Assembly (NCBI RefSeq): GCF_035084215.1
Contig: NC_090340.1
Location: forward strand, 3,596,001-3,660,000
Length of the DNA: 64,000 nucleotides
Origin: Heptranchias perlo
Taxonomy: Eukaryota
Direction: 5' to 3'
Shown: piece by piece, positions 26,351 to 52,417 of the stretch
Numbering within the stretch: position 1 is the first letter of the stretch
Layout: each line of letters starts with the position of its first letter
Notes under the pieces: model-generated
Seen by the model: the letters and a program-made list of their open reading frames with translations, nothing else
The model's database searches: none
Told to the model about the DNA's origin: nothing
Program-made: the position numbers and the translations under genes

Positions 26351-26470
26351 GAAGACCCATTCGGACGGAGGTGCACCGGATATTCCATTCCGCCTGCCCG
26401 ATAACTTCGCAGCTGACCCCAGTTAATTTCGTGGGTCACAACCAATTATTTAATGTGCTAAGCTTCCGTT

Positions 26471-27008
26471 GAGAGGAGCCGAGCCGAGCGGAGGGAGCGT
26501 CCGAGAAAAGGCGGGATTTCAGAGCGCTGAGAACAGCTGAGAGGAGCCGAGCCGAGCGGAGGGAGCGTCCGATAAAAGGCGGGATTTCAGAGCGCTGAGA
26601 ACAGCTGAGAGGAGCCGAGCGGAGGGAGCGTCCGATAAAAGGCGGGATTTCAGAGCGCTGAGAGGAGCCGAGCCGAGCGGAGGGAGCGTCCGATAAAAGG
26701 CGGGATTTCAGAGCGCTGAGAGGAGCCGAGCCGAGCGGAGGGAGCGTCCGATAAAAGGCGGGATTTCAGAGCGCTGAGAACAGCTGAGAGGAGCCGAGCC
26801 GAGCGGAGGGAGCGTCCGATAAAAGGCGGGATTTCAGAGCGCTGAGAACAGCTGAGAGGAGCCGAGCCGAGCGGAGGGAGCGTCCGAGAAAAGGCGGGAT
26901 TTCAGAGCGCTGAGAACAGCTGAGAGGAGCCGAGCCGAGCGGAGGGAGCGTCCGAGAAAAGGCGGGATTTCAGAGCGCTGAGAACAGCTGAGAGGAGCCG
27001 AGCGGAGC
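26471..27008 (+). repeat. Tandem array of 8 CpG-rich monomers (53-68 bp) plus a partial copy, forming the CR1 5' end
   Basis: Unit gagaggagccgagccgagcggagggagcgtccga(g/t)aaaaggcgggatttcagagcgct(gagaacagct), starting at 26471, 26539, 26607, 26660, 26718, 26786, 26854, 26922, 26990(partial). Confidence 0.95.
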
Positions 27009-27325
27009 TGCGACCGAGTTCGAAGTGACGTCAGGAATCAGATCGGGACGCGACACAGGGGAGGCACCTGATTGGTGAGTAGGTTCAGGTGAGTATTTCT
27101 CCTTATCGACAGTAACTGAAGTAAAAGGAAAGGGAAGGTCTGCAGGTCTTATAGGAAGTAGCGTTTATTTTTTAGTGAATCAAGGTCCCTAGTGTAGTTA
27201 ACATTCTCTAAATTGAGAACAATTTAAAGGAGTAAACTCCTTAAAGGGAGTGGTAAGTAGTTTTTCTTTCCTTTTTTTTTCTCTTGACATTGTAGTTGTT
27301 CTTAAGCTAATTTAAGGGTTAAGTC

Positions 27326-28273
27326 ATGGCAGGAGATCCCAGCGCCGTGTCATGTTCCTCTTGTGGGATGTGGGAATTCGGGGCTCCTTCCTGTATCCCT
27401 GATTCCTTCACCTGCGGGAAGTGTGTCCAGCTGCAGCTATTGTTTGACCGCTTGACGGCTCTGGAGCTGCGGATGGACTCACTTTGGAGCATCCGCGATG
27501 CTGAGAAAGTCGTGGATAGCACGTTCAGTGAGTTGGTCACACCGCAGATAAAAATTACTGAGGGAGATAGTGAATGGGTGACCAACAGACAGAGGAAGAG
27601 TAGGAAGGCAGTGCAGGGGTCCCCTGCGGTCATCTCCCTCCAAAACAGGTATACCGTTTTGGATACTGTTGGCGGAGATGGCTCACCAGGGGAAGGTGGC
27701 AGTGGCCAGGTTCATGGCACCGTGGCTGGCTCTGCTGCACAGGAGGGCAGGAAAAAGAGTGGCAGAGCTATAGTGATAGGGGACTCGATTGTAAGGGGAA
27801 TAGACAGGCGTTTCTGCGGACGCAACCGAGACGCCAGGATGGTATGTTGCCTCCCTGGTGCAAGGGTCAAGGATGTCTCGGAGCGGCTGCAGGACATTCT
27901 GGAGGGGGAGGGTGAACAGCCAGTTGTCGTGGTGCATATAGGCACCAACGATATAGGTAAAAAACAGGATGAGGTCCGACAAGCTGAATTCAGGGAGTTA
28001 GGAGTTAAACTAAAGAGTAGGACCTCAAAGGTAGTAATCTCAGGATTGCTACCAGTGCCACGGGTTAGTCAGAGTAGGAATGACAGGATAGCTAAGATGA
28101 ATACGTGGCTTGAGAGATGGTGCAAGCTGGAGGGATTCAAATTCCTGGGCCATTGGAACCGGTTCTGGGGGAGGTGGGACCAGTACAAATTGGACGGTCT
28201 GCATCTGGGCAGGACTGGAACCAATGTCCTAGGGGGAGTGTTTGCCAGTGCTGTTGGGGAGGGTTTAAACTAA
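27326..28273 (+). CDS. CR1 ORF1p: zinc finger + coiled coil + SGNH/GDSL esterase
   Basis: Intact 315 aa; CSSC..CGKC, heptad LLFDRLTALELRMDSL, esterase blocks GDS, PGA, HIGTND, DGLH. Confidence 0.93.
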   Translation: MAGDPSAVSCSSCGMWEFGAPSCIPDSFTCGKCVQLQLLFDRLTALELRMDSLWSIRDAEKVVDSTFSELVTPQIKITEGDSEWVTNRQRKSRKAVQGSPAVISLQNRYTVLDTVGGDGSPGEGGSGQVHGTVAGSAAQEGRKKSGRAIVIGDSIVRGIDRRFCGRNRDARMVCCLPGARVKDVSERLQDILEGEGEQPVVVVHIGTNDIGKKQDEVRQAEFRELGVKLKSRTSKVVISGLLPVPRVSQSRNDRIAKMNTWLERWCKLEGFKFLGHWNRFWGRWDQYKLDGLHLGRTGTNVLGGVFASAVGEGLN

Positions 28274-31221
28274 TGTGGCAGGGGGATGGGAACCGATGCA
28301 GGAAGTCAGTGGGAAATAAAGTGGTGACAGAAACAAAAGGCAGTAAGGGAGAGTGTACAGAACATGACCGGACAGATGGTCTGAGAAAGCAGGGCAAAGA
28401 CCAAGGGAAGTCTAGATTAAACTGCATTTATTTCAATGCAAGAAGTCTGATGGGCAAGGCAGATGAACTCAGGGCATGGATGGGTACATGGGACTGGGAT
28501 GTTATAGCTATTACTGAAACATGGCTAAGGGAGGGGCAGGACTGGCAGCTCAATGTTCCAGGGTACAGATGCTATAGGAAAGATAGAGCAGGAGGTAAGA
28601 GAGGAGGGGGAGTTGCGTTCTTGATTAGGGAGAACATCACGGCAGTAGTGAGAGGGGATATATCCGAGGGTTCGCCCACTGAGTCCATATGGGTAGAACT
28701 GAAAAATAAGAAGGGAGAGATCACTTTGATAGTATTGTACTACAGACCCCCAAATAGTCAACGGGAAATTGAGGAGCAAATATGTAAGGAGATTACAGAC
28801 AGCTGCAAGAAAAATAGGGTGGTAATAGTAGGGGACTTTAACTTTCCCAACATTGACTGGGACAGCCATAGCATTAGGGGCTTGGATGGAGAGAAATTTG
28901 TTGAGTGTATTCAGGAGGAATTTCTCATTCAGTATGTGGATGGCCCGACTAGAGAGGGGGCAAAACTTGACCTCCTCTTGGGAAATAAGGAAGGGCAGGT
29001 GACAGAAGTGTTAGTGAGGGATCACTTTGGGACCAGTGATCATAATTCCATTAGTTTTAAGATAGCTATGGAGAAGGATAGGTCTGGCCCAAAAGTTAAA
29101 ATTCTAAATTGGGGAAAGGCCAATTTTGATGGTATTAGACAGGAACTTTAAGAAGTTGATTGGGAGAGTCTGTTGGCAGGCAAAGGGACGTCTGGTAAGT
29201 GGGAGGCTTTCAAAAGTGTGTTAACCAGGGTTCAGGGTAAGCACATTCCTTATCAAGTGAAGGGCAAGGCTGGTAGAAGTAGGGAACCTTGGATGACTCG
29301 GGAGATTGAGGCACTAGTCAAAAATAAGAAGGAGGCATATGACATGCATAGGCAGCTGGGATCAAGTGGATCCCTTGAAGAGTATAGAGATTGCCGGAGT
29401 AGAGTTAAGAGAGAAATCAGGAGGGCAAAAAGGGGATATGAGATTGCTTTGGCAGATCAGGCAAAGGTGAATCCAAAGAGCTTCTACAAATACATAAAGG
29501 GCAAAAGGGTAACTAGGGAGAGAGTAGGGCCTCTTAAGGATCAACAAGGTCATCTATGTGCGGAACCACAAGAGATGGGTGAGATCCTGAATGAATATTT
29601 CACATCGGTATTTACGGTTGAGAAAGGCATGGATGTTAGGGAACTTGGGGAAATAAATAGTGATGTCTTGAGGAGTGTACATATTACAGAGAGGGAGGTG
29701 CTGGAAGTCTTAACGCGCATCAAGGTAGATAAATCTCCGGGACCTGATGAAATGTATCCCAGGACGTTATGGGAGGTTAGGGAGGAAATTGCGGGTCCCC
29801 TAGCAGAGATATTTGAATCATCCACCGCTACAGGTGAGGTGCCTGAAGATTGGAGGGTAGCAAATGTTGTGCCTTTGTTTAAGAAGGGCGGCAGGGAAAA
29901 GCCTGGGAACTACAGACCAGTGAGCCTGACATCTGTAGTGGGTAAGTTGTTAGAGGGTATTCTGAGGGACAGGATCTACAGGCATTTGGAGAGGCAGGGA
30001 CTAATTAGGAACAGTCAGCATGGTTTTGTGAGAGGAAAATCATGTCTCACGAATTTGATTGAGTTTTTTGAAGGGGTAACCAAGAAGATAGATTAGGGCT
30101 GTGCAGTAGACGTGGTCTACATGGACTTCAGCAAAGCATTTGACAAGGTACCGCATGGTAGGTTGTTACATAAGGTTAAATCTCATGGGATCCAAGGTGA
30201 GGTAGCCAATTGGATACAAAATTGGCTTGACGACAGAAGACAGAGGGTGGTTGTCGAGGGTTGTTTTTCAAACTGGATGCCTGTGTCCAGCGGTGTGCCT
30301 CAGGGATCGGTGCTGGGTCCGCTGTTATTTGTTATTTATATTAATGATTTGGATGAGAATTTAGGAGGCATGGTTAGTAAGTTTGCAGATGACACCAAGA
30401 TTGGTGGCATTGTGGACAGTGAAGAAGGTTATCTAGGATTGCAACGGGATCTTGATAAATTGGGCCAGTGGGCCGATGAATGGCAGATGGAGTTTAATTT
30501 AGATAAATGTGAGGTGATGCATTTTGGTAGATCGAATCGGGCCAGGACCTACTCCGTTAATGGTAGGGCGTTGGGGAGAGTTATCGAACAAAGAGATCTA
30601 GGAGTACAGATTCATAGCTCCTTGAAAGTGGAGTCACAGGTGGATAGGGTGGTGAAGAAGGCATTCAGCATGCTTGGTTTCATTGGTCACAACATTGAAT
30701 GCAGGAGTTGGGATGTCTTGTTGAAGTTGTACAGGGCATTGGTGAGGCCACACTTGGAGTACTGTGTACAGTTCTGTTCACCCTATTATAGAAAGGATAT
30801 TATTAAACTAGAAAGAGTGCAGAAAAGATTTACTAGGATGCTACCGGGACTTGATGGTTTGACTTACAGGGAGAGGTTAGACAGACTGGGACTTTATTCC
30901 CTGGAGAGTAGGAGGTTAAGGGGTGATCTTATAGAAGTCTATAAAATAATGAGGGGCATAGATAAGGTCGATAGTCAAAATCTTTTCCCAAAGGTAGGGG
31001 AGTCTATAACGAGGGGGCACAGATTTAAGGTGAGAGGGGAGAGATACAAAAGGATCCAGAGGGGCAATTTTTTCACTCAAAGGGTGGTGAGTGTCTGGAA
31101 CGAGCTGCCAGAGGCAGTAGTAGAGGCGGGGACAATTTTGTCTTTTAAAAAGCATTTGGACAGTTACATGGGGAAGATGGGTATCGAGGGATATGGGCCA
31201 AGTGCAGGCAATTGGGACTAG
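28273..31221 (+). pseudogene. CR1 ORF2p (AP endonuclease + reverse transcriptase) with two nonsense mutations
   Basis: Three ORF-track pieces share one frame, broken only by TAA 29149-29151 and TAG 30094-30096; motifs NARS, ITETW, YRPP, GDFN, SDH, PGPD, YRPVSLTS, QHGF, DFSKAFD, GVPQGS, FADD. Confidence 0.93.
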
Positions 31222-31692: not shown

Positions 31693-32710
31693 TGTCACTC
31701 ACCTACATTAACGTCGTCTAAGCTGCAACCTTATATGTTGGCATAATCAATATGTTTCGGAGCTAAGCGTGATGCCGGTATGCATATAGTGAACTCCATC
31801 TGCTCTTGCTTACAGTTGTCACTGCATTGACATACCAATAGACAATGTAAGACCACCCGCACTCTATATGCTTCCCATTTAGGCTGTCACTACCAGCCTT
31901 CTGAGTATAACAGTTATGAGTCCTGAGATTTGCATGCCGTCAACGGGTGTCCTTCTGATAGCTTCCTGAGCTGAATCAGAATTTCATGTAACTTAGTCTG
32001 CATTTGTGTTGCACGAAATGATGACACGTTATGCGGAGAGAAAGCCCACAGAGAAAGGAGTCGCAAATGTGTCACAGTTAATTCCTTCCAGGAGGCAATT
32101 AGCTTCAGAGAACTGATGGTGACAGAAGATGTTGGGAAGGAACAGAGCTTGGTCCGTTGGTAGAAATAGATTTGCACCTAGATAAAATACTTTTGGCGTC
32201 TGAGGCTTCAGCAGCCAATATATGCCCTCAGCCATACTGCTGCAATGATATTGGATTCAGGAAGATTCAAGGGAGCTCACCGATTAAAAGCCTATGAAAC
32301 CATTTCCTCCATCCCGTTGAAATGCCTCCAAATGTGACTGTTAACATGGCTGATGTCGTACCCTCTCCCATCAGCTGCCGTCCTGCCAGAATATCTTCAC
32401 GCATACTGTCATGTATTCCATTACATCATAGCGGCAACTAAAGACAAGCACGTGTGAACTTTAGACTAGTGACGTGGAAGGAAATATACTGCATGACACA
32501 GACTTCACAAGTAGCCAGCAGGCAGAGAGCATAGAGCAAGTGGACGGGATCACCTCAGATCAAAGGCTTCAGAAGTGTTAGACTTCGGCTGTAAAGCTTC
32601 GAGTCACAGATCCCATAGGCCCAATTTTCAAACAATTGTGCTCCATCTTTCTGGTCTGTAGGATTTCAACCCCTACTCTCAGGATTATAATTTAATGCAA
32701 TCCAAGGAAT

Positions 32711-33488
32711 TGTTCGTGATAACAAGACCACCACGGTACTGGTATTATGCTTAAAGGTAAAACAGATTTATTAAGCACATGACAATTAGTACAAAGAAAG
32801 TGATACTTAACAAAGAGAAATAGTCATAGTCTGTTCCTTGAAACCTTGGAAGTATTCCTCCAAGTGATTGTTGCGCGGTCTCTCTCTCTCTCTCTTGCTG
32901 AGTTCTGTTGACTGAAGAGATTTTTTTTCTTCATCGCCAGAATCTTGTGCGCCTTCCTCTTGTCTCCCACCCTTTAGAAGTTACATTCCAAGCCACTTCT
33001 GGTACCATCTGTGACTTGTTGGTACAGACTTAACCATATCTTATGTTAGAGTTACATTGCCGGCCTTGACAGGAACGTTTGTATAAACAGACGTCTATTC
33101 ACTAGCTTGCGGGGGCTCGACATAGAGGGGCCTTAGCGTGTGTTACTCCTTGATTTATTTAATCTCTCATCCTCCCTCAAGCCCGTGATTTTCCCAAATC
33201 CTGTTAATTGTCACTTCAATACTGTCAGCATTCTGTTAGTTTTAATTGCAAACTTGACTATAATAACCATCATGCACCCTTCTCGGCTACCAGTACTTCC
33301 TTATTGAATACACATTACATGGTTCAAACTATATTAATGCACATAAATGCCTCACTCCCAAGATAGGGAATTGTAAGAATTAACCCAATAACAGAAATAA
33401 TTTAGTACAATTATAAAGAATAGTATTCTACTTCTACTGTTCTTTATAATTGTACTAAATTATGTCTGTTATTGTGTTAATTCTTACA
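32711..33488 (-). repeat. 3' LTR of element 1
   Basis: Begins TGTAAG after purine tract AAGGTAGGGA-AT (33500-33489); AATAAA near 32770; ends ...GAACA at 32711; no second copy to confirm boundaries. Confidence 0.6.
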
Positions 33489-33510
33489 ATTCCCTACCTT
33501 GAGAGCGAGG
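33350..33510. repeat. Long inverted repeat (76-bp arms, 9-nt loop) spanning the PPT and U3 start
   Basis: 33350-33425 is the reverse complement of 33435-33510 with 6 mismatches. Confidence 0.95.
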
Positions 33511-33623
33511 TTTTTATGCCGATCCCTCATACTTCATGCGAATATATTTTAGATTCCTATTTTTGCTACTTTCTATTAGATCTTGGGTTCTTATCCCTCA
33601 TAACTGGTCTCTCATCTGGCGCA

Positions 33624-34243
33624 CTAATGTTTCAAATAACATGTATAGGAAACTAGACAAATCAGTGCTAATAGCTGGGCCACTACCAACAGGTGTGAAA
33701 GCGTTCTGAGCCAGGGAGGAATTATGATCTTTGACCCTCTGTCCCACCAATGTGTAGAGCCCCCTACCCCTAGGATCTCCTTAACCACATCCTCATTTCT
33801 CTGTTCCAGTTCGAATGGATTCCCTCACTGTCTACGATTATGTGTCCCGTTAAAGCTTCTTGCACCTGTTCCCATACTTTGTCATTCTTTTTCAGGAATT
33901 TCCATAGTCTGCACTTTGCTGTTTTCGTAATGGGCACCTCATGCATTGCCAATATCCCTGCTGTACTTCCCTCTCTTTCACCTGTTCAAATGTAATACCA
34001 CATAGCACCTGGAAATCTGTTACCGCATCTTCGTCCCTATTTTCCTTAATTCCCAATGTAAAATTACAATTACTTGTCTCGTTATATTTCTTAGTGTGTC
34101 GATGCCCACCAATGACCTGTGGCTTTGTTTCAAAATACAATAGTTCGGTAAATGTTCGCCTAAAACGGGTGCACAATCAAGGATTCTTGATTCTCTACTT
34201 GATGTACGCCTTGGAGTATCAATATCAGCATAAGAGTCCACAT
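33624..34243 (-). pseudogene. Short env-like remnant of element 1
   Basis: Acceptor cttacag (34252) then signal peptide MWTLMLILILQGVHQ; after frameshifts FELEQRNEDVVKEI..HWWD..IPPWLRTLSHLLVVAQLLALICLVSYTCYL (heptad + TM). Confidence 0.65.
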
Positions 34244-34277
34244 TTTCCACCTGTAAGCAGACCAAGCATAATATATT

Positions 34278-35320
34278 TTAATCCTTGACAGTTTTCATTC
34301 GGTTCATGTGAAATCACTCAGCTTTGGTTCCCCCTTTAACCCATTAGGAACATTCAAATGACAGATGGCTGGGTTCAGCTTATCAACGATACGGTGAGGC
34401 CCTGTCCATTTAAGATCAAATGAATGCTATTTCGGGGAGAATTTCTGTAACATGACTTTATTCCCAATCTGACCCTTTTGTCAAAGTATTTTTTTTACCT
34501 GTCGTCGGGATTTGCCCATATTGATTGCCACTAACTAGTTTACCTTGTTGATATGGTCAATCAGAGTCTGTATCCACTTCTGATAACACGGTTGTAGTTT
34601 CAGAGGGGTGTTGCTACCTAAGGTTACATGACCTGGTATGTGCATTTGTCTCGCTGTCATTGCCTCGTATGGACTGATCCCTGTTGTCTTGTGAGGGGTA
34701 GAGCGTATGGACATCAAGCACAGGCGCATCATGCTAGCCCATTGATCGGGGTGTTCTGTACACATTTTGTGTTACGGTGTTTTTAGTGTTCCTTTTGTCT
34801 CTTTCCACAATTCCAGACGACTGTGGATGGTGGGGAATGTGTAATTTATGTCACATCTGTAGAATCTACTGCAGAGCAATAAAGATTTCCCCTGTAAAGT
34901 GTGGGCCCTGATCACTATCCAACTGAACTGGTATTCCCCATGCAACTCGCTCAATAAGATATGTGCTGTTGTACGTGCCTTATTGTTCCTGGTGGGAAAG
35001 GCTTCTATCCACTTAGTGAATTGATCAACCACCACGAGGGCATACTTGTAATTGCCCTGAGATTTGGTAAAGGGACCAATGAAATCAATCCGTATGTGCG
35101 TTCACGGCTCGTCAGGAGGAGGCTGTAAACGCAGAAAGGCACGGTTAGAGCAGGTGGGGGGTTGAGTTGCAAACAAGGTAGAGATCGATTAACAAATAGC
35201 TCAAAGAATTCTGCTATCCACTGCCACCAAAATACATTACTCAGCTTTGCCAAAGTGGTTTCAGCTGAATAGTGTCCGGCCTTGGGATGGGAGTGGAAAA
35301 GAGCTAACATGTCCTCCTTA
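34278..35320 (-). pseudogene. Integrase (HHCC, DDE, GPY/F-like C-terminus)
   Basis: FHSHPKAGH, VVDQFTKWIEAFP, STPHKTTGISPYE, WTGPHRIVDKL; frameshifted. Confidence 0.9.
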
Positions 35321-35489
35321 GGGTCTGGGGGAAGGCAAGGAATGTAAACACCAACTGGTTTATGTTAAATCAGGAGGGGAGGGGGTGATGGTAGCTGTTG
35401 AAGCACCATTGACTCAGCCCAGGTTTTCGGCTTCGGAAGTGGCCGTCCCTCTTGATGCCATGTAATTACCGTGGCATAAGGGTCATGGG

Positions 35490-35990
35490 TTAACTGTAGC
35501 GCTGAAAGATCAATCGCGGTTGCTTTCGTGACCGCCCCGACCTCGGGCGTGCTGGGACAGTGAGGCCATCAATAGCCAACTCTTTAGCCAGCTGATCAGT
35601 AACTTTATTACTCTGGATGTGAGGGGAGGAATCTCTCTGATGGGCAGCTAACTCCCCGATATGACATGGGACATCTCGCTCCTGGATCACCTGCCAAAGC
35701 TTACGGAGGAGTTCCGAATATAATAGGGGCTTACCATCTGAAGAGTAGTAATCGTTCTTAGTATAGAGGGGCAGAGCCATAGCGGCATTGCTACTGTCTA
35801 AGCAATTGTTAGTTGCTTCATCCGCCGAATAATGAAGGACCAGAATTATTGCAATCAGCTCGGCCTGTTGGGAGGAGTGGAGAGGGACCTTAAGCCCCAT
35901 TGACCAATAGGGGGCAGTTATGTCTACCATCGCACACCCTGTGTAAGCTTTACCATCTCTGTGATAGGATGATCCGTCCACATATACACT
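35490..35990 (-). pseudogene. Second (retroviral-type) RNase H
   Basis: YVDGSS..SSQQAELIAI..DS..LAAH..NKVTDQLAK. Confidence 0.88.
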
Positions 35991-36049
35991 GCGAGTGTCA
36001 GGGATAAGTTTTGACTCAATAAGACTTGCTGTTTAATCCAATACTGGTA

Positions 36050-37340
36050 ATGGGCATTGGTACGGGCTTCCCTCGTATGGCAGCATAAGCGGTAGGAGGG
36101 TTGTTTGTTTAGGAGTTATATCCAGATCCCGTTGGAGAAATTCGAACGTCCATTTGCTACTCCGATGTGAGGACACAAGAGTGTCGCTTGGTTTCAATAT
36201 TAAATTGAGGGGTGTGTGTGGTGAATGTAGTATCAGCTTCTGAAGTCCTGTGATATACGTAAAATGATTAACCGCTCAGAATTTGGCCAGAAGGTGGCGT
36301 TCACATGCCGTAGACTGAACTTCCACGCCTCTCAGTATCTTAGATGCGTATGCTATGGGGTGTAATTTACCATCCGCTGACTGCAGCTGACTCAGAACGG
36401 CTGTCAGGCTGACGGCGGTGGACCCCACTTCCAGATGGAACGGCTGAGTATGATCAGGGGAGATAAGTGCGGCAGCCTGCATTGTAGCCTGCTTTCAGGC
36501 TCCCACTGCCTGTGTGTGAGATTCATCCCATACCTATCGTAGATCCTCCGGGCCCTCTCCCTTCAATAGTTCATACAATGGTTTCGCCATTGCTGCAAAA
36601 TTTGGGATAAAATTTTGTTGATATCCTACCAGTCCCAAGAAGGATGGTAACGCTGTTATAGACCAAGGTAACGATAATCGCTGCATGATGGCAACCTTCT
36701 GTTCATCCGGTCGGAGTACCGCCGCTGAAATCTTGATGCCGAGGAAAGCGACTTCCTCCCGCACGAGCTGCACCTTCCTCGGGTTTATTTTTAACCCAGC
36801 CTTCTGTAACAAAGGTAACAGTTCATTCAAAAGTGTTAAATTTTCTGGGACGTCCTCCGAGGCCAGGAGGAGATCGTCCACTTATTGTAAAAGAGTCACT
36901 GGTTTCGAGAACGCCTGTACTATCTCAGCCATATGCTGATGGAAAAATAGACGGCGAATTATGGAAGCCCTGTGGCAGGCAAGTGAACGTTTGGCTCTGT
37001 CCCTCAAAAGTGAAAGCGAATTCATATTGGTCGTCCCTAGCCACTGGAATACTCCAAAAACCATTCGCGATGTTAAGGGTCAAGAACACTGTAGCCTTAT
37101 TGGGAACCGAGGTTAACAGGGAGGGGGCATGGCTAACCGTGGTACTCTTATTCAACATCCTGTAATCAATAGTGAGTCTCCAAGACTCATCAGGCTTCCT
37201 AACCGACCATACGGGGGAATTGGTAGTAAAAGCGCCTTTCCTTATCACCCTCTGCTCTTCCAGTGAGGCAATGACGGTTCACAAATATGGAATACTCTCC
37301 CTTGGAATCGGATACTGCTCACAGGCTTGGTGTGGCGGAC
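36050..37340 (-). pseudogene. Reverse transcriptase + degenerate RNase H tether
   Basis: NSPVWSVRKPDESWRLTIDYRMLN, NGFWSIP, LPQGFHNSP, *VDDLL, FLGLVGY; tether PFHLEV..PIAYASKIL..CERHLLA lacks the catalytic Asp. Confidence 0.92.
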
Positions 37341-37444
37341 CATTAATTTGCACTAGCCATCCGTCTACAATCGTGATTAGTTTTAGCGAATATATCAGCA
37401 GGTGTGTCAATCAATTCTTGTACCTCAGGCAACCGGTGGGTCAG

Positions 37445-37895
37445 TCATGCCAGCTGCCCTGCTTTTTTGACGGCTTGCACGGAGTGCGTGTCCAAAATCT
37501 GGTCTACGTCCTCCACCTCTGATCCCATCCACAGGCAATCATGATTGTAGTCTAAAATAGCATTCAGCGCTCGCAGGGTGTCGCTCCCAAGGATGCCTCG
37601 TTCGTCGTTCATACGCATATATATGAGTTCTATCACCCGCACTGGTATATCTCCTAGCATGATGTAAACACTATCACGCGGGTAAGCAAGGGTATAGGAC
37701 CCCGTAATCCCTGTCACTGGAACTAATTTTTCCCTGAGTGACGTGAGTCTCTGGGGAGGAGAAGTGCGCAATAATCATGGAAGATCCGGTGTCAATCAAC
37801 ATTGTCTGCCGCACGGAGGCGGAAATCATGGGTCGGCCATAAGCGTCCCGCTCGAACCTCACCTCTCTCCAACGGGAGAGGTGGGATCCTGTCAT
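37445..37895 (-). pseudogene. Aspartic protease
   Basis: DAYGRP..LIDTGS, GITG, GILGSD. Confidence 0.85.
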
Positions 37896-38974
37896 AAGGA
37901 AGGAGGGGGTTCCAGCTGCAACTCTGTAATCTGGGCTACTGGAAACTCATGCGCACGAGTGGTTATTAAAGTCTGCACAATACTGGTCCGTTTTTCGATC
38001 CTATCATCTGCAGTGTCCGACCATGCCTGACAATTAGGTGGCTCCTGGGCTTGATATTCACCCGAGGCTGGGTTTCCCTTGGTCATTTGATTTGATTTTG
38101 GGGCCTGGTTTACTCGAAGCCCTCCTCTTCTATCTCTCCCAAGACTGAAATGCTTATCACCTGGACAGTCTCTCGCGAAGTGTCCGTGAACTCCACAATT
38201 ATAGCATACACCGTTAGGCCTGAGCAATGGCGCAGAAGGGGTATAACGTGGACCTTCTACTGTGTTAACAGGCCTGTCTGGGAAAAGCATACTGGCGGGT
38301 GGTAATTGCATCTGGGTTTTCACAAACTCGCATGCCGACGTGGTTTGTTGGAGTATGGTGTCCCACGGTGTCACATGGGTGATAGTATGTGCCAGAGCTG
38401 ATCGAAGCGATGGACGAAGTTTACTCAGGAATATCTTTTTCAACGCAACCTCATTTTTCCCATCTTGGTCATTCGCATTTGGGGTTCACTGTACCATGTT
38501 ATATATGGCATATAGCCGGACTGCAAAAGCACAGGGCACCTCGCTGGGATTCTGCTTAGTCTGGCACATTTTAACTGGCAAATCCATAGAGTTCACCCCT
38601 AAAGCTGTCTATAGTATCTTCTACGGTGCGGTTTTCCCTGAAGACAGCGAACGATAAGAATGCCAGAAACTCGCTGGAAAGAGCGGTTCACAGGATCTGT
38701 TTCATACCCACATTTTCCAACGTACGGCGGTAGGTCCGGAAATCAATCACCCTTTGTTTTACTTCCATTGGTCACGTCTGCATGGTCACTGGTCCCAATT
38801 GTTGAACACAGGCTTTTAACCCTGCAAAGTCCAAGGGCTGGGATTATTCGACGTACCTGCCCAGGGAGGTACCCCTGGTGGTGGTAACAGTGCCCTGGCG
38901 GGAGGTGATCCGTTATTATCTGATTCAGGTGAACCCGCCTGTCTCTGATTCCAAGCGGGGGCAGCAGGGACAGG
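37892..38974 (-). pseudogene. gag C-terminal part (capsid-like + CCHC knuckle)
   Basis: CYNCGVHGHFARDC; Pro-rich spacer. Confidence 0.85.
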
Positions 38975-41900
38975 GGGCTCGAATTTAGCAGGCCTGCGGG
39001 TTCCCAGCGGGTGGTCCTCCGGGAGCGTGGTCAACACGCTCGGCGAAATTAGTGGGTTGCCCGCGCGATCGGAGCAGGCAACACACTGGGCATGATTTTA
39101 GCAGGCCTGCGGGTTTCCGGCGGGTTGGGTTTCAGGTGCGTGGCCTCCGCGCCCGGTGAAATTAGTGGGTTGCCCGCGCGATCGTAGCAGGCAATCAACT
39201 AATTGGATCCACTTACCTGCTCCTCCGGGGTCCGCGCTGCTGGTCTGCGCGTCAGGCGGGCTGCGCATGCGCAGTACGATCTGTCAGCTGGAGGCTCTCT
39301 AGTTAAAGGGGCAGTCCTCCACTGACAGATGCTGCAACCAATGGAACAAATTACAGCATGGAGCAGCCCAGGGGGAAGGCTGCTCCCAGTTTAATGATGC
39401 CTCACCCCAGGTATCATCAGATGGGGTGAGGAGGAGGGGGAGGACAGAGATTTTCCACCCGGCGGGCGGGAGGAAGCGGCCTGCCTCTGCCACCAAGAAG
39501 GCCTGGCTCGAGGTGGCAGAGGGGGTCACCTGCGCCACCAACATATCGCCCACCTGCATACAGTGCAGGAGGCGCTCCAATGACCGCAGTAGGTCAGCCA
39601 CAGTGAGAACACGTAGTCTTTCCCCTACACTCCGTCTGCCACATCACTGCCCCCACCCCACATCTCCTTCGGCACCGCCAACACTACTCTGTCACATCAC
39701 CCCTCATAACCACTCAAACCCCATCCTCATCTTACCTGCACCTACTCACCTCGCCATTACTCATCCTGCCACTAACACGCAACCCAATCCTCATACAATC
39801 TCATGGCTCTATCCCATATTCACCCTCTCGTGGATCTCCCTCACGGCCAGCCTCACTCAACCTGCCACCACCTGTGCTGCAGCCAGAGGGCATGCATCAC
39901 ATATGTGCAGTAGGCAGCGTAAGGCAAACGTGTCGTGAGCATGAAGGGGATGCACAAGGGTATCTGAGGGTTTGCAATGGTTGTTACCTATATTGAATTT
40001 CAGAGCAACAAACATCACACATTTTATTGGCACCACCACTGCCATGTCTCTGCGAATCCTGTCTGTTGTGTCCAATAATGCCCGCTCCTGGGTATAACTA
40101 TGAGGACCCACCACTGATGCCACCCATTGTTTTACTGCAGAGTAGGTGCAGGTGTATTTGCAGGGCTCTTCCGTGCAGACGACTGAGAGACATCGGCGGT
40201 GCACCCGGCTGCACCCTGGAAGGATGCGGAGGAGAAGTTGTGGAGGGCAGTGGTGACTTTGGCAGCGAAAGGTAAGCAGATGATGCTCGGGCCACCCAGG
40301 AGCAGCTCGGCATGAAAGAGCCTGCAGATCTCCACGACTACATGTCGAGTGAATCTGCGCCTCCGTGTGCACTGCTGCTCGGAGAGGTCCGGGAAGCTGC
40401 GCCTCGGTCTGTGGACCCTGTGGTGAGTGTAGTGCCCTCTGCGACGCGTCTCTCTCTGCGGTAGCCCTCCCTCCTGATGTACAGGTGGATGTGTCACAGC
40501 ACTCTGTTGTGGAGCTCCGTGTGTCAGAGGTGGACGGCGTGGATGGCGAGGCTGGTGATGCTGTTCGCCCTCCGAGGGGCTCATGACTGCAGCTATGGCG
40601 GCCCCCATCCGCAATATGTACATCTAAGGGGGTCCGCAAAGTAGGCACATTTCTCCAGACCCCGGGGTGAGTGTGCAGGTTGGTGACTTTGACAGTCCAG
40701 AGGGGGGTGGTGGAGGCCACACTTTGTCCCAAGTGACAGAGCGGCCTCCTGCAATGGGTGAGGGTCTCCCCCCCCTCCACCTGTCAAATAGACCTTTGCA
40801 GCTGCCACAGCCTGACGGCTGCAACACGTCCAGTTCAACGAGGACAGTTTCCCCCAGTGTGTGAAACAGTCCCATGTTTCTCCAAAAACACACACAGTCC
40901 CTTAATCAGGTCAGTTAATGACCTGAACAAGCGAAATAAATAACCTCAAGTGGCATCCCGCTGGCTTTAATTGCCTGCGGGATTCCCACCAGCGGGGGCC
41001 ACGCACGTACCCCTGCACGTCATCGGGGAACCCAGAAGTGGGCGGGATGGTGGCGCGATCCGGTCACGTGACTGGATATCGGGATTTTCGGGTCTCCCCC
41101 GCCGGAAACCCACAGGAAACCCGACGGTAAAATCGAGCCCACTAATAGGAATCAATTACCTGCTCCTCCGGGATCCGCGGCGCTGGCCTGCGCGTCGGGC
41201 GGGCTGCGCATGCGCAGTACGATCTGTCAGCTGGAGGCTCTCCAGTTAAAGGGGCAGTCCTCCACTGACAGATGCTGCAACCAATGGAACAAATTGCAGC
41301 ATGGAGCAGCCCAGGGGGAAGGCTGCTCCCAGTTTAATGATGCCTCTCTCCAGGTATCATCAGATGGGGTGAGGAGGAGGGGGAGGACACAGATCTTCCC
41401 ACCGACGGGCGGGAGGAAGCGGCCTGCCTCTGCCACCAAGAAGGCCTGGCTTGAGGTGGCAGAGGGGGTCACCTGCGCTACCAACATATGGCCCACCTGC
41501 ATACAGTGCAGGAGGCGCTGCAATGACCGCAGTAGGTCAGACACAGTGAGAACACAAAGTCTTTCCCCTACACTCCGTCTGCCACAACACTGCCCCCACC
41601 CCACATCTCCTTCGGCACCGCCAACACTATTCTGTCACATCACCCTTCATACCCACTCAAACCCCATCCTCATCTTACCTCCACCTACACACCTCGCCAG
41701 TACTCATCCTGCCACTAACACGCAACCCAATCCTCATACAATCTCATTGCTCCATCCCATACTCACCCTCTCGTGCATCTCCCTCACGGCCAGCCTCACT
41801 CAACCTGCCACCACCTGTGCTGCAGCCACAGGGCATGCATCACATATGTGCAGTAGGCAGCGTAAGGCAAACGTGTCGTGAGCATGAAGGGGGTGCACAA

Positions 41901-43080
41901 GGGTGTCTGAGGGTTTGTCATGGGTGTTACCTATATTGAATTTCAGAGCAACAAACAGCACACATTATATTGACACCACCACTGCCATGTCTCCGCAAAT
42001 CCTGTTCGTTGTGTCCAATAATGCCTGCTCCTGGGTATCACTATGAGGACCCACCACTGATGCCACCCATCGCGTTACTGCAGAGTACGTGCAGGTGTAT
42101 TTGCAGGGCTCGTCCGCGCAGACGACTGAGAGACATCGGCGGTGTAGCCGGCTGCACCCTGGAAGGATGCGGAGGAGAAGGTGTGGAGGGCAGTGGTGAC
42201 TTTGACAGCGACAGGTAAGCAGTTGGTGCTGGGGCCAGCCAGGAGCAGCTCGGCATGAAAGAGGCTGCAGATCTCCACGACTACATGTCGAGCGAATCTG
42301 CACCTCCCTGTGCACTGCTGCTCGGAGAGGTCCGGTGAGCTGCGCCTCGGTCTGTGGACCCTGTGGCGAGGGTAGTGCCCTCTGCGACGCGTCTCTCTCT
42401 GCGGTAGCCCTCCCTCCTGCTGTGCAGGTGGGCATGCAACAACACCGTGTTGGGGGGCTCCACGTCTCTGCGGCGGACGGCGTGGACTGCGAGGCTGCTT
42501 AGGCTGGTCATGCTGTTCGTCCTCCGAGGTTGTCCACACACCACCCATCTGGCAGGTGTTGGTCTGAGGGGTTGTGCAGGGTAGGTGGGTGGTTCCTCGG
42601 ACTGGGGCTGCGGTTTCGTGTCGGTCTGTCCTCTGGCTTGGCGGGGGGTGGTGGGGGACAGGGGTTGCCCTATGTGACGCGGTGGCCTCCTGCGTGGGTG
42701 AGGGCTGTCCCCCGTGGAGTGCACCTTGGCACCTGCCACAGGCTGCTGGCTGCAACACGCCTGGTTGGAGAGAGACTTTTTCCCCCAGTGTGTGAAACTC
42801 ACTGCCTTGAACCTAAAATCCCACACTTCCTCTTTTGACAGCTGATTCAGCTCATTAACTGACCTCAACAAGCAAGGTAAGTACACTCAAGTGCATCCCC
42901 GCTGGCTTTAATTGCCTGTGGGATTCCCACCAGCAGGGCTTGCGGGCGCAGCCCCGCACGTCAGCGCGGTACCCGGAAGTGGCCGGGATTTCGTCGCGAT
43001 CCGGTCACCTGACCGGATATCGGGATTTTCCGGGCCCCCCGCTGGAAACCCGCTGGAAACCCGACGCCAAAATCGAGCCC
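38975..43080. mobile_element. PIF/Harbinger derivative (outer copy)
   Basis: TIRs GGGCTCGAATTT / AAAATCGAGCCC; imperfect 3-bp TSD AGG/AGA; Myb/SANT ORF remnant (+, ~41300-41545) and HARBI1-like transposase N-terminus (-, ~42110-42560). Confidence 0.85.
39089..41140. mobile_element. PIF/Harbinger derivative (inner copy, inserted in the outer copy)
   Basis: TIRs GGGCATGATTTT / AAAATCGAGCCC; perfect TSD ACT (39086-39088, 41141-41143); Myb (KKAWLEVA..QCRRRSND) and transposase remnant (DLSEQQC..KVTTALHNFSSASFQ..VSQSS). Confidence 0.88.
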
Positions 43081-43801
43081 AGAGTCCGGATGCACCCAGG
43101 ACCCAGTCACAAGATTAACTGGATTCCCCTCAATATCAGGAGATGGGCCTTCACTCCTCCTTCCGCAGCCTCATTTCACACTTTCCCCTCGTTCTGAATG
43201 ACCGACACTGGTTTTACATACAATGGGGGAGGTTCCATTCATGGGAGCGGGAGATACGGGGACTGACCATGCCTACTATCCCAATGGTAATTCTGCCCGG
43301 CGTCTCCAGCTACAACAGCCGCTACGACAGCTTGTTCTACTCCAAGTCTGCTTTCGAACTGTTGGATTCTGTCCCGGCATGCTCGGTGGTCTGCCTCTCG
43401 ATAGGGTCGCTGAAGGGCTTCTCGCAAAACACCTCTTGCATCCTCTAATTATTTATTGAGGCGAGTATTATCTTTCCTTACAGTTTCTAGATGGCATCTT
43501 GTTTCCTCTAAATGATGTAATGCTGATCCAGCAGTACAGCTTTAACACTTTGATGTTGCATGATTGCAGCTGCGGACACAACTTGGTATTTTAAACTGTC
43601 AATCTGACTATCTTTCTCGGTAAGTTCTTTCTGCTGCTGTAGGATGACATCTCGATCTCGTTCCACAAAATATGAGGCTGCATAAGTGATCAATCGGATC
43701 ACATTATCCCGCCTCCATTTCTTATCAGTAACTCTCTGTTCAATGAACGCCACGGCGTCCCTCAGCGTAACTTCTGGGCCTTTCCATAGGCATTCTAACA
43801 A
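43081..43801 (-). pseudogene. gag N-terminal part (coiled-coil-rich) of element 1
   Basis: ILQQQKELTEKDSQIDSLKYQV; the frame (NLVTGSWVHPDS/VPAAPAW) rejoins 38974 when the Harbinger and a 3-bp TSD are removed. Confidence 0.65.
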
Positions 43802-44362
43802 TAAACCTCTACATCAGTCCTGCTACGCTTCTTCTCTATCCAGGCACTTAGAAGAACAAAAGGGAAATCATTTCAAGAATAATGAACACATTATCTGCCA
43901 TTTCACTCATAATAATGTATAAATTGGAGTGCCACCATTTTGCTGCTTTTTTCATTGAGCTTGATAATTATACTGGATCGGTGGGCGGGTGGGGGGGCGT
44001 GGTGCGATATTTGTGGTGAGCCTCTAATGTTGATGTGTAGCCAATTATAGATATTGCGATCATAATGTCAGAAATGGGGATGTTCGCTGATGATTGCATA
44101 GCGTTCAGTTCCATTCGCAACCCCTCAGATAATGAAGCCTTCCGTGCCCGTATGCAGCAAGACCTGGACAACATCCAGGCTTCGGCTGATAACTGGCAAG
44201 TAATATTCGCGCCAGACAAGTGCCAGGCAATCACTATCTCCAACAAGAGAGAGTCTAACCACCTCCTCTTGACATGCAACGGCATTACCATCGCCGAATC
44301 CCCCACAATCACCATCCTGGTGGTCACCTTTGACCAGAAACTTAACTGGACCAGCCATAAAA

Positions 44363-45123
44363 ATGCCGAGTCACAGGAGTATAAACATCACACGAGAGGA
44401 CACCACCCACCAGGTAGATGGTTCATACACCTGTGACTCGGCCAACGTTGTCTACCTCATACGTTGCAGGAAAGGATGCCCCGGAGCATGGTACATTGGC
44501 GAGACCATGCAGACACTGCGACAACGGATAAACGGACACCGCGCAACAATAGCCAGACAGGAGGGTTCCCTCCCAGTCGGGGAACACTTTAGCAGTCAAG
44601 GACATTCAGCCACCGATCTTCGGGTAAGCGTTCTCCAAGGCGGCCTTCGAGACACACGACAACTCAAAATCGTCGAGCAGAAATTGATAGCCAAGTTCCG
44701 CACCCATGAGGACGGCCTCAACCGGGATCTTGGGTTCATGTCACGCGACACGTAACCCCACCAGCAGGAAAAAAAAGTTATCTGTTTTTAATACAACTGG
44801 AAATTCTCTCTCTCTCTCTCTGCCTTTCGGGCCTCTTTCTCTCTGTCTGTATAATTTGACACATTGTGTATTCAGCGTACAAGGAACTACTGTTTTCGGT
44901 GGCTAACCTGTCTGAACACCAACCACACCTTTGATTGGTGTGATGGTGTCCCAGCCTAATATAAGATATGCGATTTGAGAACCACTCATTCACTCACTCA
45001 CCTGACGAAGGAGATAATCTCCGAAAGCTTGTGATTTTAAAATAAAATTGTTGGACTATAACCTGGTGTTGTAAGATTCCTTACATTTGTCCACCCAAGT
45101 CCATCACCGGCATATCCACATCA
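44363..45123 (+). mobile_element. Penelope-like element 3' fragment (GIY-YIG endonuclease + pLTR)
   Basis: YTCDSANVVYLIRC..YIGET..LRQRINGHR..VGEHF..EQKLIAKF..GLNRD; splits a LINE fragment. Confidence 0.88.
44998..45034 (+). ncRNA. Minimal type I hammerhead ribozyme motif
   Basis: TCAC-CTGACGA-A-GGAG(ataat)CTCC-GAAA-GC-TT-GTGA: conserved core, stem II, palindromic AAGCTT stem III, stem I TCAC/GTGA. Confidence 0.7.
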
Positions 45124-51837: not shown

Positions 51838-52417
51838 TTTCCCCCCTTTTATCATTTCATGATAACCAATTATTACGGTGCTCACTGGTTCTGCAGGTTC
51901 TGCAGCGCAGCAACATTTAAGTCAGCAATAAACTATAAGAGTTATAACAATGAATATGACTAGCCCTTGAACTAGAGAAGTCCCAATAGAACACAGACAT
52001 GTTTCATCAATACGCCTTTGTACTCTTATCTGTTCTCAGGAACAGACTCCTTCTAAACATCTCTCAAGTAAGTTGCGAATGTCCTTGGTCAGCTAAACCT
52101 ATTCATGTTAATTTGAAAAGGCTAAAATAGTCAAATATCCTATGGTGCTTTATATTTTGTTTCCAGCCTAACTAGACTGAATGGTACCTTTCAGACCATT
52201 TTACACCTGTGAATTGGTGCCCTCCCCATTATATCCCTTAATCCAAATTCTCCCTACAATATCCCGTTAGATGCTGTACCTCATCTTCACCAGGTTCCCT
52301 TCGTGTTGGCCACCAGTCCGGGTGGAAGAGAGGCAGAGCATCTGATAATCCTATCAAACTATAATTGTCTTCCCTTTTACATGCACCTTAACCCAGCAGG
52401 TGCTACTCCCGGTACCA

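What the first reader, a model, noticed from the sequence alone, without database searches (positions are those of the whole stretch)
32711..43800. Lokiretrovirus-like provirus (dual RNase H + env) in a probable cartilaginous fish
Seen: gag-CCHC, PR, RT (LPQGFHNSP, VDDLL), a first RNase H with its catalytic Asp lost (PFHLEV..AYAS..CERHLLA), a second retroviral-type RNase H (DGSS..QQAELIA..AH..N..D), integrase, and an env-like ORF with its own splice acceptor and signal peptide. Known: tether+RNase H is the retrovirus/lokiretrovirus/Odin layout, not that of ordinary Gypsy elements. Lokiretroviruses are the sister group of retroviruses and have an env related to Mononegavirales F proteins; as I recall, their described hosts are lampreys, bony fishes, amphibians and reptiles. 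Inference: this may be a chondrichthyan member of that lineage, filling a host gap.
Basis: partly seen in the sequence, partly recalled or inferred. Interest (0 to 1): 0.85.

Follow-up and report, generated by a model that had tools for sequence, protein, structure and literature searches.

The report
Dead shark retrovirus, F-type envelope
This is a broken fossil retrovirus, likely in a shark, whose copying enzyme groups with ordinary retroviruses and not with the lokiretroviruses it was taken for, while the envelope gene of its family is predicted to fold like the fusion protein of measles- and RSV-type viruses.

Summary
The anatomy is real: a minus-strand provirus with gag-CCHC, protease, RT, tether, second RNase H, integrase, env remnant and a 3' LTR. 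It is dead: many stops and frameshifts, about 1.7 kb of env deleted, a 4.1-kb transposon in gag, and the 5' LTR deleted.

It is not a lokiretrovirus. RT trees put it among canonical retroviruses (100/99 support), and a clade with loki is rejected (AU p=0.022 and 0.0003). Its nearest protein is a Xenopus tropicalis ERV Pol, and by eye its pol matches elephant-shark CmiERV lineage I (Han 2015), so no host gap is filled.

The loki-like traits are nonetheless real. Env from sister copies folds like paramyxo/pneumovirus F (Foldseek E 4e-7; sister family 6e-11, Z 12.6), behind a likely Ig-like domain. Its RNase H groups with loki, away from SnRV and gamma. CmiERV-I has a gamma-type env, which suggests an env exchange within one lineage.

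The host is probably a cartilaginous fish (indirect evidence). This scan found the same kind of element before in other genomes (3 notes). I found no paper describing this env type here.

The parts
32653..32656 (-). 4-bp target-site duplication, right half
   Evidence: Same 4 bases flank the 5' LTR of the duplicated insertion L017; L020 also shows a 4-bp repeat
32657..33488 (-). 3' LTR, 832 bp, TG...CA ends
   Evidence: 56 matches in the genome from 40 of 482 candidates scored
33489..33500 (-). Polypurine tract
   Evidence: Purine run directly before the LTR, kept in L017 and L020
33501..34243 (-). env remnant: signal peptide and start of a likely Ig-like domain (34243-33810), joined to the membrane-proximal part and TM (33809-33627); about 1.7 kb deleted at 33809/33810
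   Evidence: TM hydropathy 2.15
34251..34252 (-). Candidate env splice acceptor (AG after a pyrimidine-rich run), 8 bases before the env ATG
   Evidence: Sequence; use not shown
34304..35364 (-). Integrase (zinc finger, core, C-terminal part), broken
   Evidence: Pfam, tblastn
35553..35990 (-). Second, retroviral-type RNase H
   Evidence: PF00075 E 1.4e-9; aligns to MLV RNase H
36036..36494 (-). Tether (degenerate Ty3-type RNase H)
   Evidence: PF17919 E 6.7e-14; acidic residues lost
36497..37353 (-). Reverse transcriptase, in pieces
37448..37891 (-). Protease; pol begins in frame right after the gag TGA
37892..38974 (-). gag 3' part with one CCHC knuckle
   Evidence: PF00098 E 9e-8
38975..43080 (.). 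Later insertion: two tandem DNA-transposon-like units with about 12-bp inverted ends and a 3-bp duplication (Harbinger-like by recalled hallmarks; no Pfam hit)
   Evidence: empty site in L017, L018, L019; Pfam blank
43081..43848 (-). End of the leader and gag 5' part (coiled-coil-like)
   Evidence: 83-90% nucleotide identity to sister copies
43843..43848 (.). Junction of a deletion of about 1.5 kb that removed the PBS, the 5' LTR and about 550 bp of host flank
   Evidence: Window 43843-43901 matches L017 9942-10000, beyond L017's 5' LTR

Best explanation
This is a dead provirus whose reverse transcriptase groups with canonical retroviruses (likely the CmiERV-I / SnRV-related, class III-like grade), and whose family carries an envelope predicted to be an F-type class I fusogen. 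Shown: LTR, 4-bp target duplication, a PBS in sister copies complementary to a host tRNA-Arg(TCG), a TGA between gag and an in-frame pol, tether plus RNase H, and the breaks that killed this copy. Inferred life cycle of the ancestor: LTR-driven RNA; Gag-Pol by read-through of the TGA; tRNA-Arg priming; spliced env; furin-type cleavage at a basic site, exposing a fusion peptide for F-like membrane fusion, with the N-terminal Ig-like domain as a likely receptor-binding module; germ-line integration. History of this locus, inferred: integration into an Ig-receptor gene cluster, env deletion, segmental duplication (L017), then the transposon insertion and loss of the 5' LTR, then a recent duplication (L016). 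The lineage likely kept an old RNase H and env type shared with loki, while its relative CmiERV-I carries a gamma-type env.
For: RT tree, 45 rows: branch separating loki+Gypsy from the window's side 100/99; window+loki rejected, p-AU 0.022. RT+tether tree, 32 rows: window sister to X. tropicalis P0002 100/99, inside canonical retroviruses 100/99; p-AU 0.0003. The mixture-model quick tree agrees (SH-aLRT 96). References were labelled by motif identity with the published alignments: P0074 = SnRV, P0085/86 = lamprey loki, seven teleost loki. Family RT identity: 56% to P0002, 45% SnRV, 37% loki. A lamprey loki Pol finds only 32-37% matches in this genome (53 scored, strict first look); 4 of the 6 top loci show the canonical motif, and all 6 are nearer to family B than to loki. 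Env: family copy L024 matches F proteins, best E 3.6e-7, all 38 rows shown are F; sister-family env E 5.7e-11, Z 12.6, rmsd 11.5, 331 aligned to hPIV3 F and Z 12.5, rmsd 6.0, 320 aligned to Langya F, residues 245-650. No gamma-type CX6CC or ISD in 46 of 46 env rows. PBS in 8 of 17 loci examined, exact 18/18 in 4. RNase H: window with loki and the frog/coelacanth set against SnRV+gamma, 98/96 and 97/95; window+P0002+SnRV rejected, p 0.021.
Against: The position inside canonical retroviruses is unresolved: no tree shows a supported clade with SnRV, and the integrase rejects one (p 0.006). No foamy, Odin or named ERV-L/epsilon reference was in the trees. The link to CmiERV-I rests on reading the published DNA by eye, not on a computed alignment. 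The models are middling (mean pLDDT 60 and 64; TM to targets 0.3-0.47; high rmsd). PF00523 hits 0 of 41 env rows and PDB sequence searches find no F. The window's own env lacks the fusion core, so the F call is by proxy. RNase H trees are unrooted, 149 columns, with long branches. The Ig-like domain rests on a motif, an all-beta model and weak hits (E 0.05-0.9; 1 of 41 rows Pfam Ig). The basic cleavage site is intact in 2 of 4 family copies checked.
Confidence: 0.8

Rival explanations
1. It is a true lokiretrovirus, the first in a cartilaginous fish.
For: Tether plus RNase H; F-fold env in sister copies; RNase H groups with loki; integrase pieces score higher on loki than on SnRV (35% against 22% for the C-terminal piece); coiled-coil-like Gag start.
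Against: RT, the defining marker, excludes it (p-AU 0.022 and 0.0003). Canonical RT motif. Loki Env starts its F region right after the signal peptide (Loki-Xtr and Loki-Pma rows), here after about 220 extra residues. F-like Env is not loki-specific: foamy Env (PMC11468914), walleye epsilonretrovirus Env at ranks 6 and 27.
Confidence: 0.04
2. It is an old recombinant lineage: a canonical RT joined to RNase H, integrase and env taken from a lokiretrovirus.
For: RT and RNase H trees conflict. Loki integrase nests with the coelacanth/frog members of this grade at 94/95. Domain swapping is described for retroviruses (PMC7947760).
Against: Loki stays one clade on a long branch in every tree, and the family never falls inside it. 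Shared ancestral state explains the same pattern: Wang and Han call the loki+foamy RNase H the oldest type. No env sequence similarity to PF00523.
Confidence: 0.12
3. It belongs to the shark/frog foamy-like ERVs (CmiFLERV, XtrFLERV; clade Tu).
For: Those were reported from a shark and X. tropicalis (PMC5512871), the hosts of the nearest relatives here; foamy Env is F-like; foamy RNase H groups with loki.
Against: MLV RT scores 121 bits against 82 for foamy. By eye the RT resembles SnRV more than the ZFERV-2 and AciFLERV rows. A CCHC Gag and read-through pol are not foamy traits (recalled). The FLERV sequences could not be seen, so this is untested by tree.
Confidence: 0.04

Closest known systems
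CmiERV lineage I of elephant shark (Han 2015, PMC4422223), reported to cluster with snakehead retrovirus; clade Huo of Xu et al. 2018
   Same: By eye on the published DNA: same RT, tether, RNase H and integrase motifs, stop between gag and pol, coiled-coil-like Gag start, one CCHC, splice acceptor after pol, cartilaginous-fish host.
   Different: CmiERV-I env has a gamma-type TM (ISD and CX6CC, read by eye) and another PBS; this family has an F-fold env and a tRNA-Arg(TCG) PBS.
Unnamed ERV Pol proteins of Xenopus tropicalis (P0002), coelacanth and frogs, annotated 'NYNRIN-like'
   Same: Closest proteins found: 52% over RT-tether-RNase H; sister to the family in RT+tether and integrase trees (100/99). 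X. tropicalis also holds an env relative.
   Different: Not shown that the frog pol and env lie in one element.
Snakehead retrovirus (SnRV)
   Same: Nearest named exogenous virus by RT identity (45%); tRNA-Arg primer and gag read-through (recalled).
   Different: No supported clade on RT; RNase H and integrase reject one; no accessory genes seen here; SnRV Env was not among the relatives I could name.
Lokiretroviruses (Wang and Han 2021, PMC7947760)
   Same: Tether plus RNase H, F-type env, RNase H on the same side of the tree, coiled-coil Gag start.
   Different: RT clade and motif; N-terminal extension of Env; not detected in 6 chondrichthyan genomes listed in that paper, nor here.
Foamy virus Env and paramyxo/pneumovirus F
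   Same: Predicted fold of the ectodomain core.
   Different: 7-15% identity; the extra domain sits at the N terminus, whereas the foamy RBD is nested inside the core (PMC11468914).

Membership tests
Lokiretroviruses | RT falls in the loki clade, sister to canonical retroviruses | tested here: not met
   p-AU 0.022; p-AU 0.0003; 4-9 loki rows per tree
Lokiretroviruses | Tether plus second RNase H | tested here: met
   shared with all retroviruses
Lokiretroviruses | Env related to Mononegavirales F | tested here: met
   By predicted fold on sister copies; by sequence PF00523 0 of 41; core deleted in the window
Lokiretroviruses | RNase H of group I (loki + foamy) | tested here: inconclusive
   Same side as loki at 98/96 and 97/95, but unrooted, no foamy rows, long branches
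Lokiretroviruses | Integrase sister to CGIN1/NYNRIN | tested here: inconclusive
   No CGIN1 row; family position relative to loki open
Canonical Retroviridae | RT inside the retrovirus clade; LTR-PBS-gag-pol-env-PPT-LTR | tested here: met
   (5' LTR and PBS from sister copies)
SnRV-related / clade Huo, CmiERV lineage I | Pol clusters with SnRV | tested here: inconclusive
   RT unresolved; RNase H and integrase reject
SnRV-related / clade Huo, CmiERV lineage I | Pol closely similar to CmiERV scaffold 2 | tested here: inconclusive
   Motifs match by eye; no computed alignment
Gamma-type Env | ISD and CX6CC in TM | tested here: not met
   0 of 46 env rows
Foamy viruses / FLERVs | RT in the foamy clade | not testable with these tools
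   No foamy sequence came into the session; only PDB scores
Odin / Gypsy | RT outside retroviruses; Gypsy with a single active RNase H | tested here: not met
   Gypsy rows separate 100/100; Odin rows not available

The most novel reading that the evidence does not exclude
Sharks, frogs and coelacanth hold a deep grade of canonical retroviruses that kept the ancestral kit shared with lokiretroviruses (old-type RNase H, related integrase, F-type Env) and added an Ig-like receptor-binding domain. F-type Env would then be the original envelope of all retroviruses, and gamma-type Env a later replacement that occurred even within this lineage (CmiERV-I). A young sister family with at least 66 env copies in this genome shows the grade was active recently.
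Probability: 0.4. Interest if true: 0.75.

Novelty: new variant of a known kind. Interest (0 to 1): 0.5.

Why it matters
Wang and Han left four scenarios open for where retroviral Env came from. An F-fold Env on the canonical side of the RT tree, outside foamy viruses, favours the scenarios in which the common ancestor already had it. It also shows that dual RNase H plus F-like env does not diagnose a lokiretrovirus. Two env classes on closely similar shark pol genes would be a clean case of envelope exchange. The locus itself is an ordinary decayed copy, and the claimed first chondrichthyan lokiretrovirus does not stand.

Tried and rejected
Env by sequence: Pfam, PDB phmmer and hmmsearch and ESM Atlas gave nothing usable. 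Viral contigs held no relative. Sequencing runs: organism coded; no RNA holder listed, which says nothing on expression. ESM Atlas on the host V exon gave only 'Chordata'. A third protein search found no shark Pol by name. XtrFLERV/CmiFLERV sequences were not in the supplements searched. PMC9972966 (cartilaginous-fish foamy virus) is not held. A PBS-like site at 52312 has 3 mismatches and no LTR beside it: chance. Rows dropped: 17 of 60 RT rows, 11 integrase rows plus one failed cut, 12 RNase H rows, 30 of 60 kept (near-duplicates, long branches, odd composition). My label 'GrusENS3/Hirundo' covers class II-like rows; no true ERV-L row was identified. Not in print: no description of an F-type env in SnRV-related or shark ERVs in searches; subscription papers (e.g. 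Calcraft 2024, seen only as a citation) and bioRxiv supplements were not visible and could hold one.

Full report
OBSERVATION. Three-frame translation and Pfam confirm a minus-strand gag-pro-pol with CCHC knuckle, RT, tether, second RNase H and integrase. The window is C18:3596001-3660000 of a 3.25-Gb genome; the RNase H finds 151 matches, 14 of the 150 listed at 69% identity or more. Twenty 10-kb stretches around matches were compared with the window. They define the 3' LTR at 32657-33488 with a polypurine tract and 4-bp target duplication. They also show three large lesions: about 1.7 kb missing from env, a 4.1-kb insertion in gag with inverted ends and an empty site in other copies, and a deletion of the PBS, 5' LTR and host flank. 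pol has at least 5 frame changes and about 16 stops. The copy cannot replicate.

HISTORY OF THE LOCUS. L017 shares the host flank and the env deletion, lacks the insertion and keeps both LTRs (K2P 0.107). L016 is 98.8% identical and has the insertion. So the order is integration, env deletion, duplication, insertion, duplication (inferred); the 5' LTR loss came after the first duplication. With the two rates used in PMC4422223 (2.2e-9 and 2.2e-10 per site per year) 0.107 gives about 24 or 240 million years, so the age is only 'old'.

CLASSIFICATION. Protein searches brought in references. P0074 matches the SnRV row, and P0085/86 and seven teleost proteins match the loki rows, of the alignments in the loki paper's supplement. 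In RT trees the window's two pieces and a natural open frame of the same family (L020) fall on the canonical side: quick mixture tree, careful tree 100/99 with p-AU 0.022 against a clade with loki, RT+tether 100/99 with p-AU 0.0003. Relations inside the canonical side are mostly open; the one firm sister is an X. tropicalis Pol. A loki query finds nothing above 37% in this genome, with a strict first look. The published CmiERV scaffold-2 sequence, which Han placed with SnRV, shows the same pol motifs by eye but a gamma-type env. Against a simple 'SnRV-like' label: RNase H puts the family on the loki side, and both RNase H (p 0.021) and integrase (p 0.006) reject a clade with SnRV. Foamy and Odin rows were not available.

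ENVELOPE. Sister copies keep the part deleted here. It aligns with the env of a younger family at 30-41% identity: signal peptide, N-terminal domain, basic cleavage site, hydrophobic peptide, heptads, Cys-rich region, TM. A search of 1.84 billion representatives gave 43 relatives; 20 were looked up, 16 had names, 14 from sharks and skates and 2 from frogs. AlphaFold2 models from 41-row alignments (mean pLDDT 64 and 60) match paramyxo- and pneumovirus F over residues 245-650 of the longer model, nearly the whole F ectodomain. Sequence methods see no F. The N-terminal domain is all-beta in the model with a C...W...GxYxC pattern and weak Ig hits; UniRef names one relative 'Ig-like domain-containing'. 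It is variable: only 6 of 43 relatives match it, against 36 of 43 for the core. I call it likely Ig-like and its receptor role untested.

MECHANISM. Shown: PBS complementary to the 3' end of a host tRNA-Arg(TCG) gene plus CCA; gag ends in TGA with pol in frame and no ATG at the junction in the window, L020 and 3 of 3 family-B copies (two other junction windows were misplaced and uninformative). Inferred from established retroviral biology: read-through, spliced env, cleavage-primed class I fusion, integration.

HOST. Indirect: named env relatives are mostly chondrichthyan (up to 76% to family B); a sawshark Niban protein matches six exons at 63-80%; V and C1 Ig exons show a jawed vertebrate; earlier notes call this genome a shark. 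About 90% likely.

LITERATURE SEEN. PMC7947760: text parts 1-3 of 4, supplement part 1 and term searches; six chondrichthyan genomes are listed without the asterisk that appears to mark positives. PMC4422223: text part 1 of 2, supplement part 1 of 3. Passages only: PMC9040795, PMC10435555, PMC6001957, PMC5512871 (and a supplement search), 10.1101/2023.10.26.564294, PMC11468914, PMC11521997, PMC10699275, PMC12583693, 10.1101/2024.03.17.585361, PMC8922424, PMC12287698, PMC12440569. PMC9972966: title in a reference list only. SnRV primer and read-through, foamy Gag traits and Harbinger hallmarks are recalled. Three earlier notes of this scan, on other genomes, reached the same reading; I saw them after forming mine, and they are not independent support.

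VERDICT. A real but dead ERV of a lineage already known in cartilaginous fish, not a lokiretrovirus. The F-type env with a likely Ig-like domain, the loki-side RNase H and the apparent env exchange make it a new variant that bears on the origin of Env. Interest 0.5.

Noticed in passing
L032-L036 and G000 matches: A young sister ERV family (family B; RT 52% identical to the window's family): open gag, Pol of 1405-1420 aa, LTR pairs at K2P 0.004-0.005, the same F-type env. 66 of 66 scored env matches, in open frames of 336-831 aa (a floor).
   Followed up: partly
L042-L047: A third family of the same grade with long open Pol frames, 45-49% identical to family B, canonical RT motif.
   Followed up: partly
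   Followed up: partly
L016 (C18:4.42 Mb) and L017 (C18:5.23 Mb): Two segmental duplicates of this insertion, 98.8% and 87.8% identical including host flank; they order the mutations.
   Followed up: yes
P0191, P0192, P0208: Long env-like annotated genes in Mustelus, Chiloscyllium and Pelodytes with differing N-terminal domains; candidates for co-option and for domain exchange.
   Followed up: no
L017, L018, L020, L024: LTR pairs differ by K2P 0.107, 0.035, 0.047 and 0.012 although separate insertions differ by 8-18% in pol: long invasion or LTR conversion.
   Followed up: no
window 27323-31221 (+), 44041-44755 (+), 26399-27075: A near-complete LINE, a LINE fragment with a GIY-YIG (Penelope-like) piece, and a 68-bp tandem repeat.
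   Followed up: no
ranks 2, 6, 27: Predicted Env of walleye epsilonretroviruses (WEHV1, WDSV) and a fish filovirus glycoprotein score as F-like against this env model.
   Followed up: no
window 33342-33518: An 84-bp inverted repeat spans the 5' edge of the 3' LTR and is kept in sister copies.
   Followed up: no
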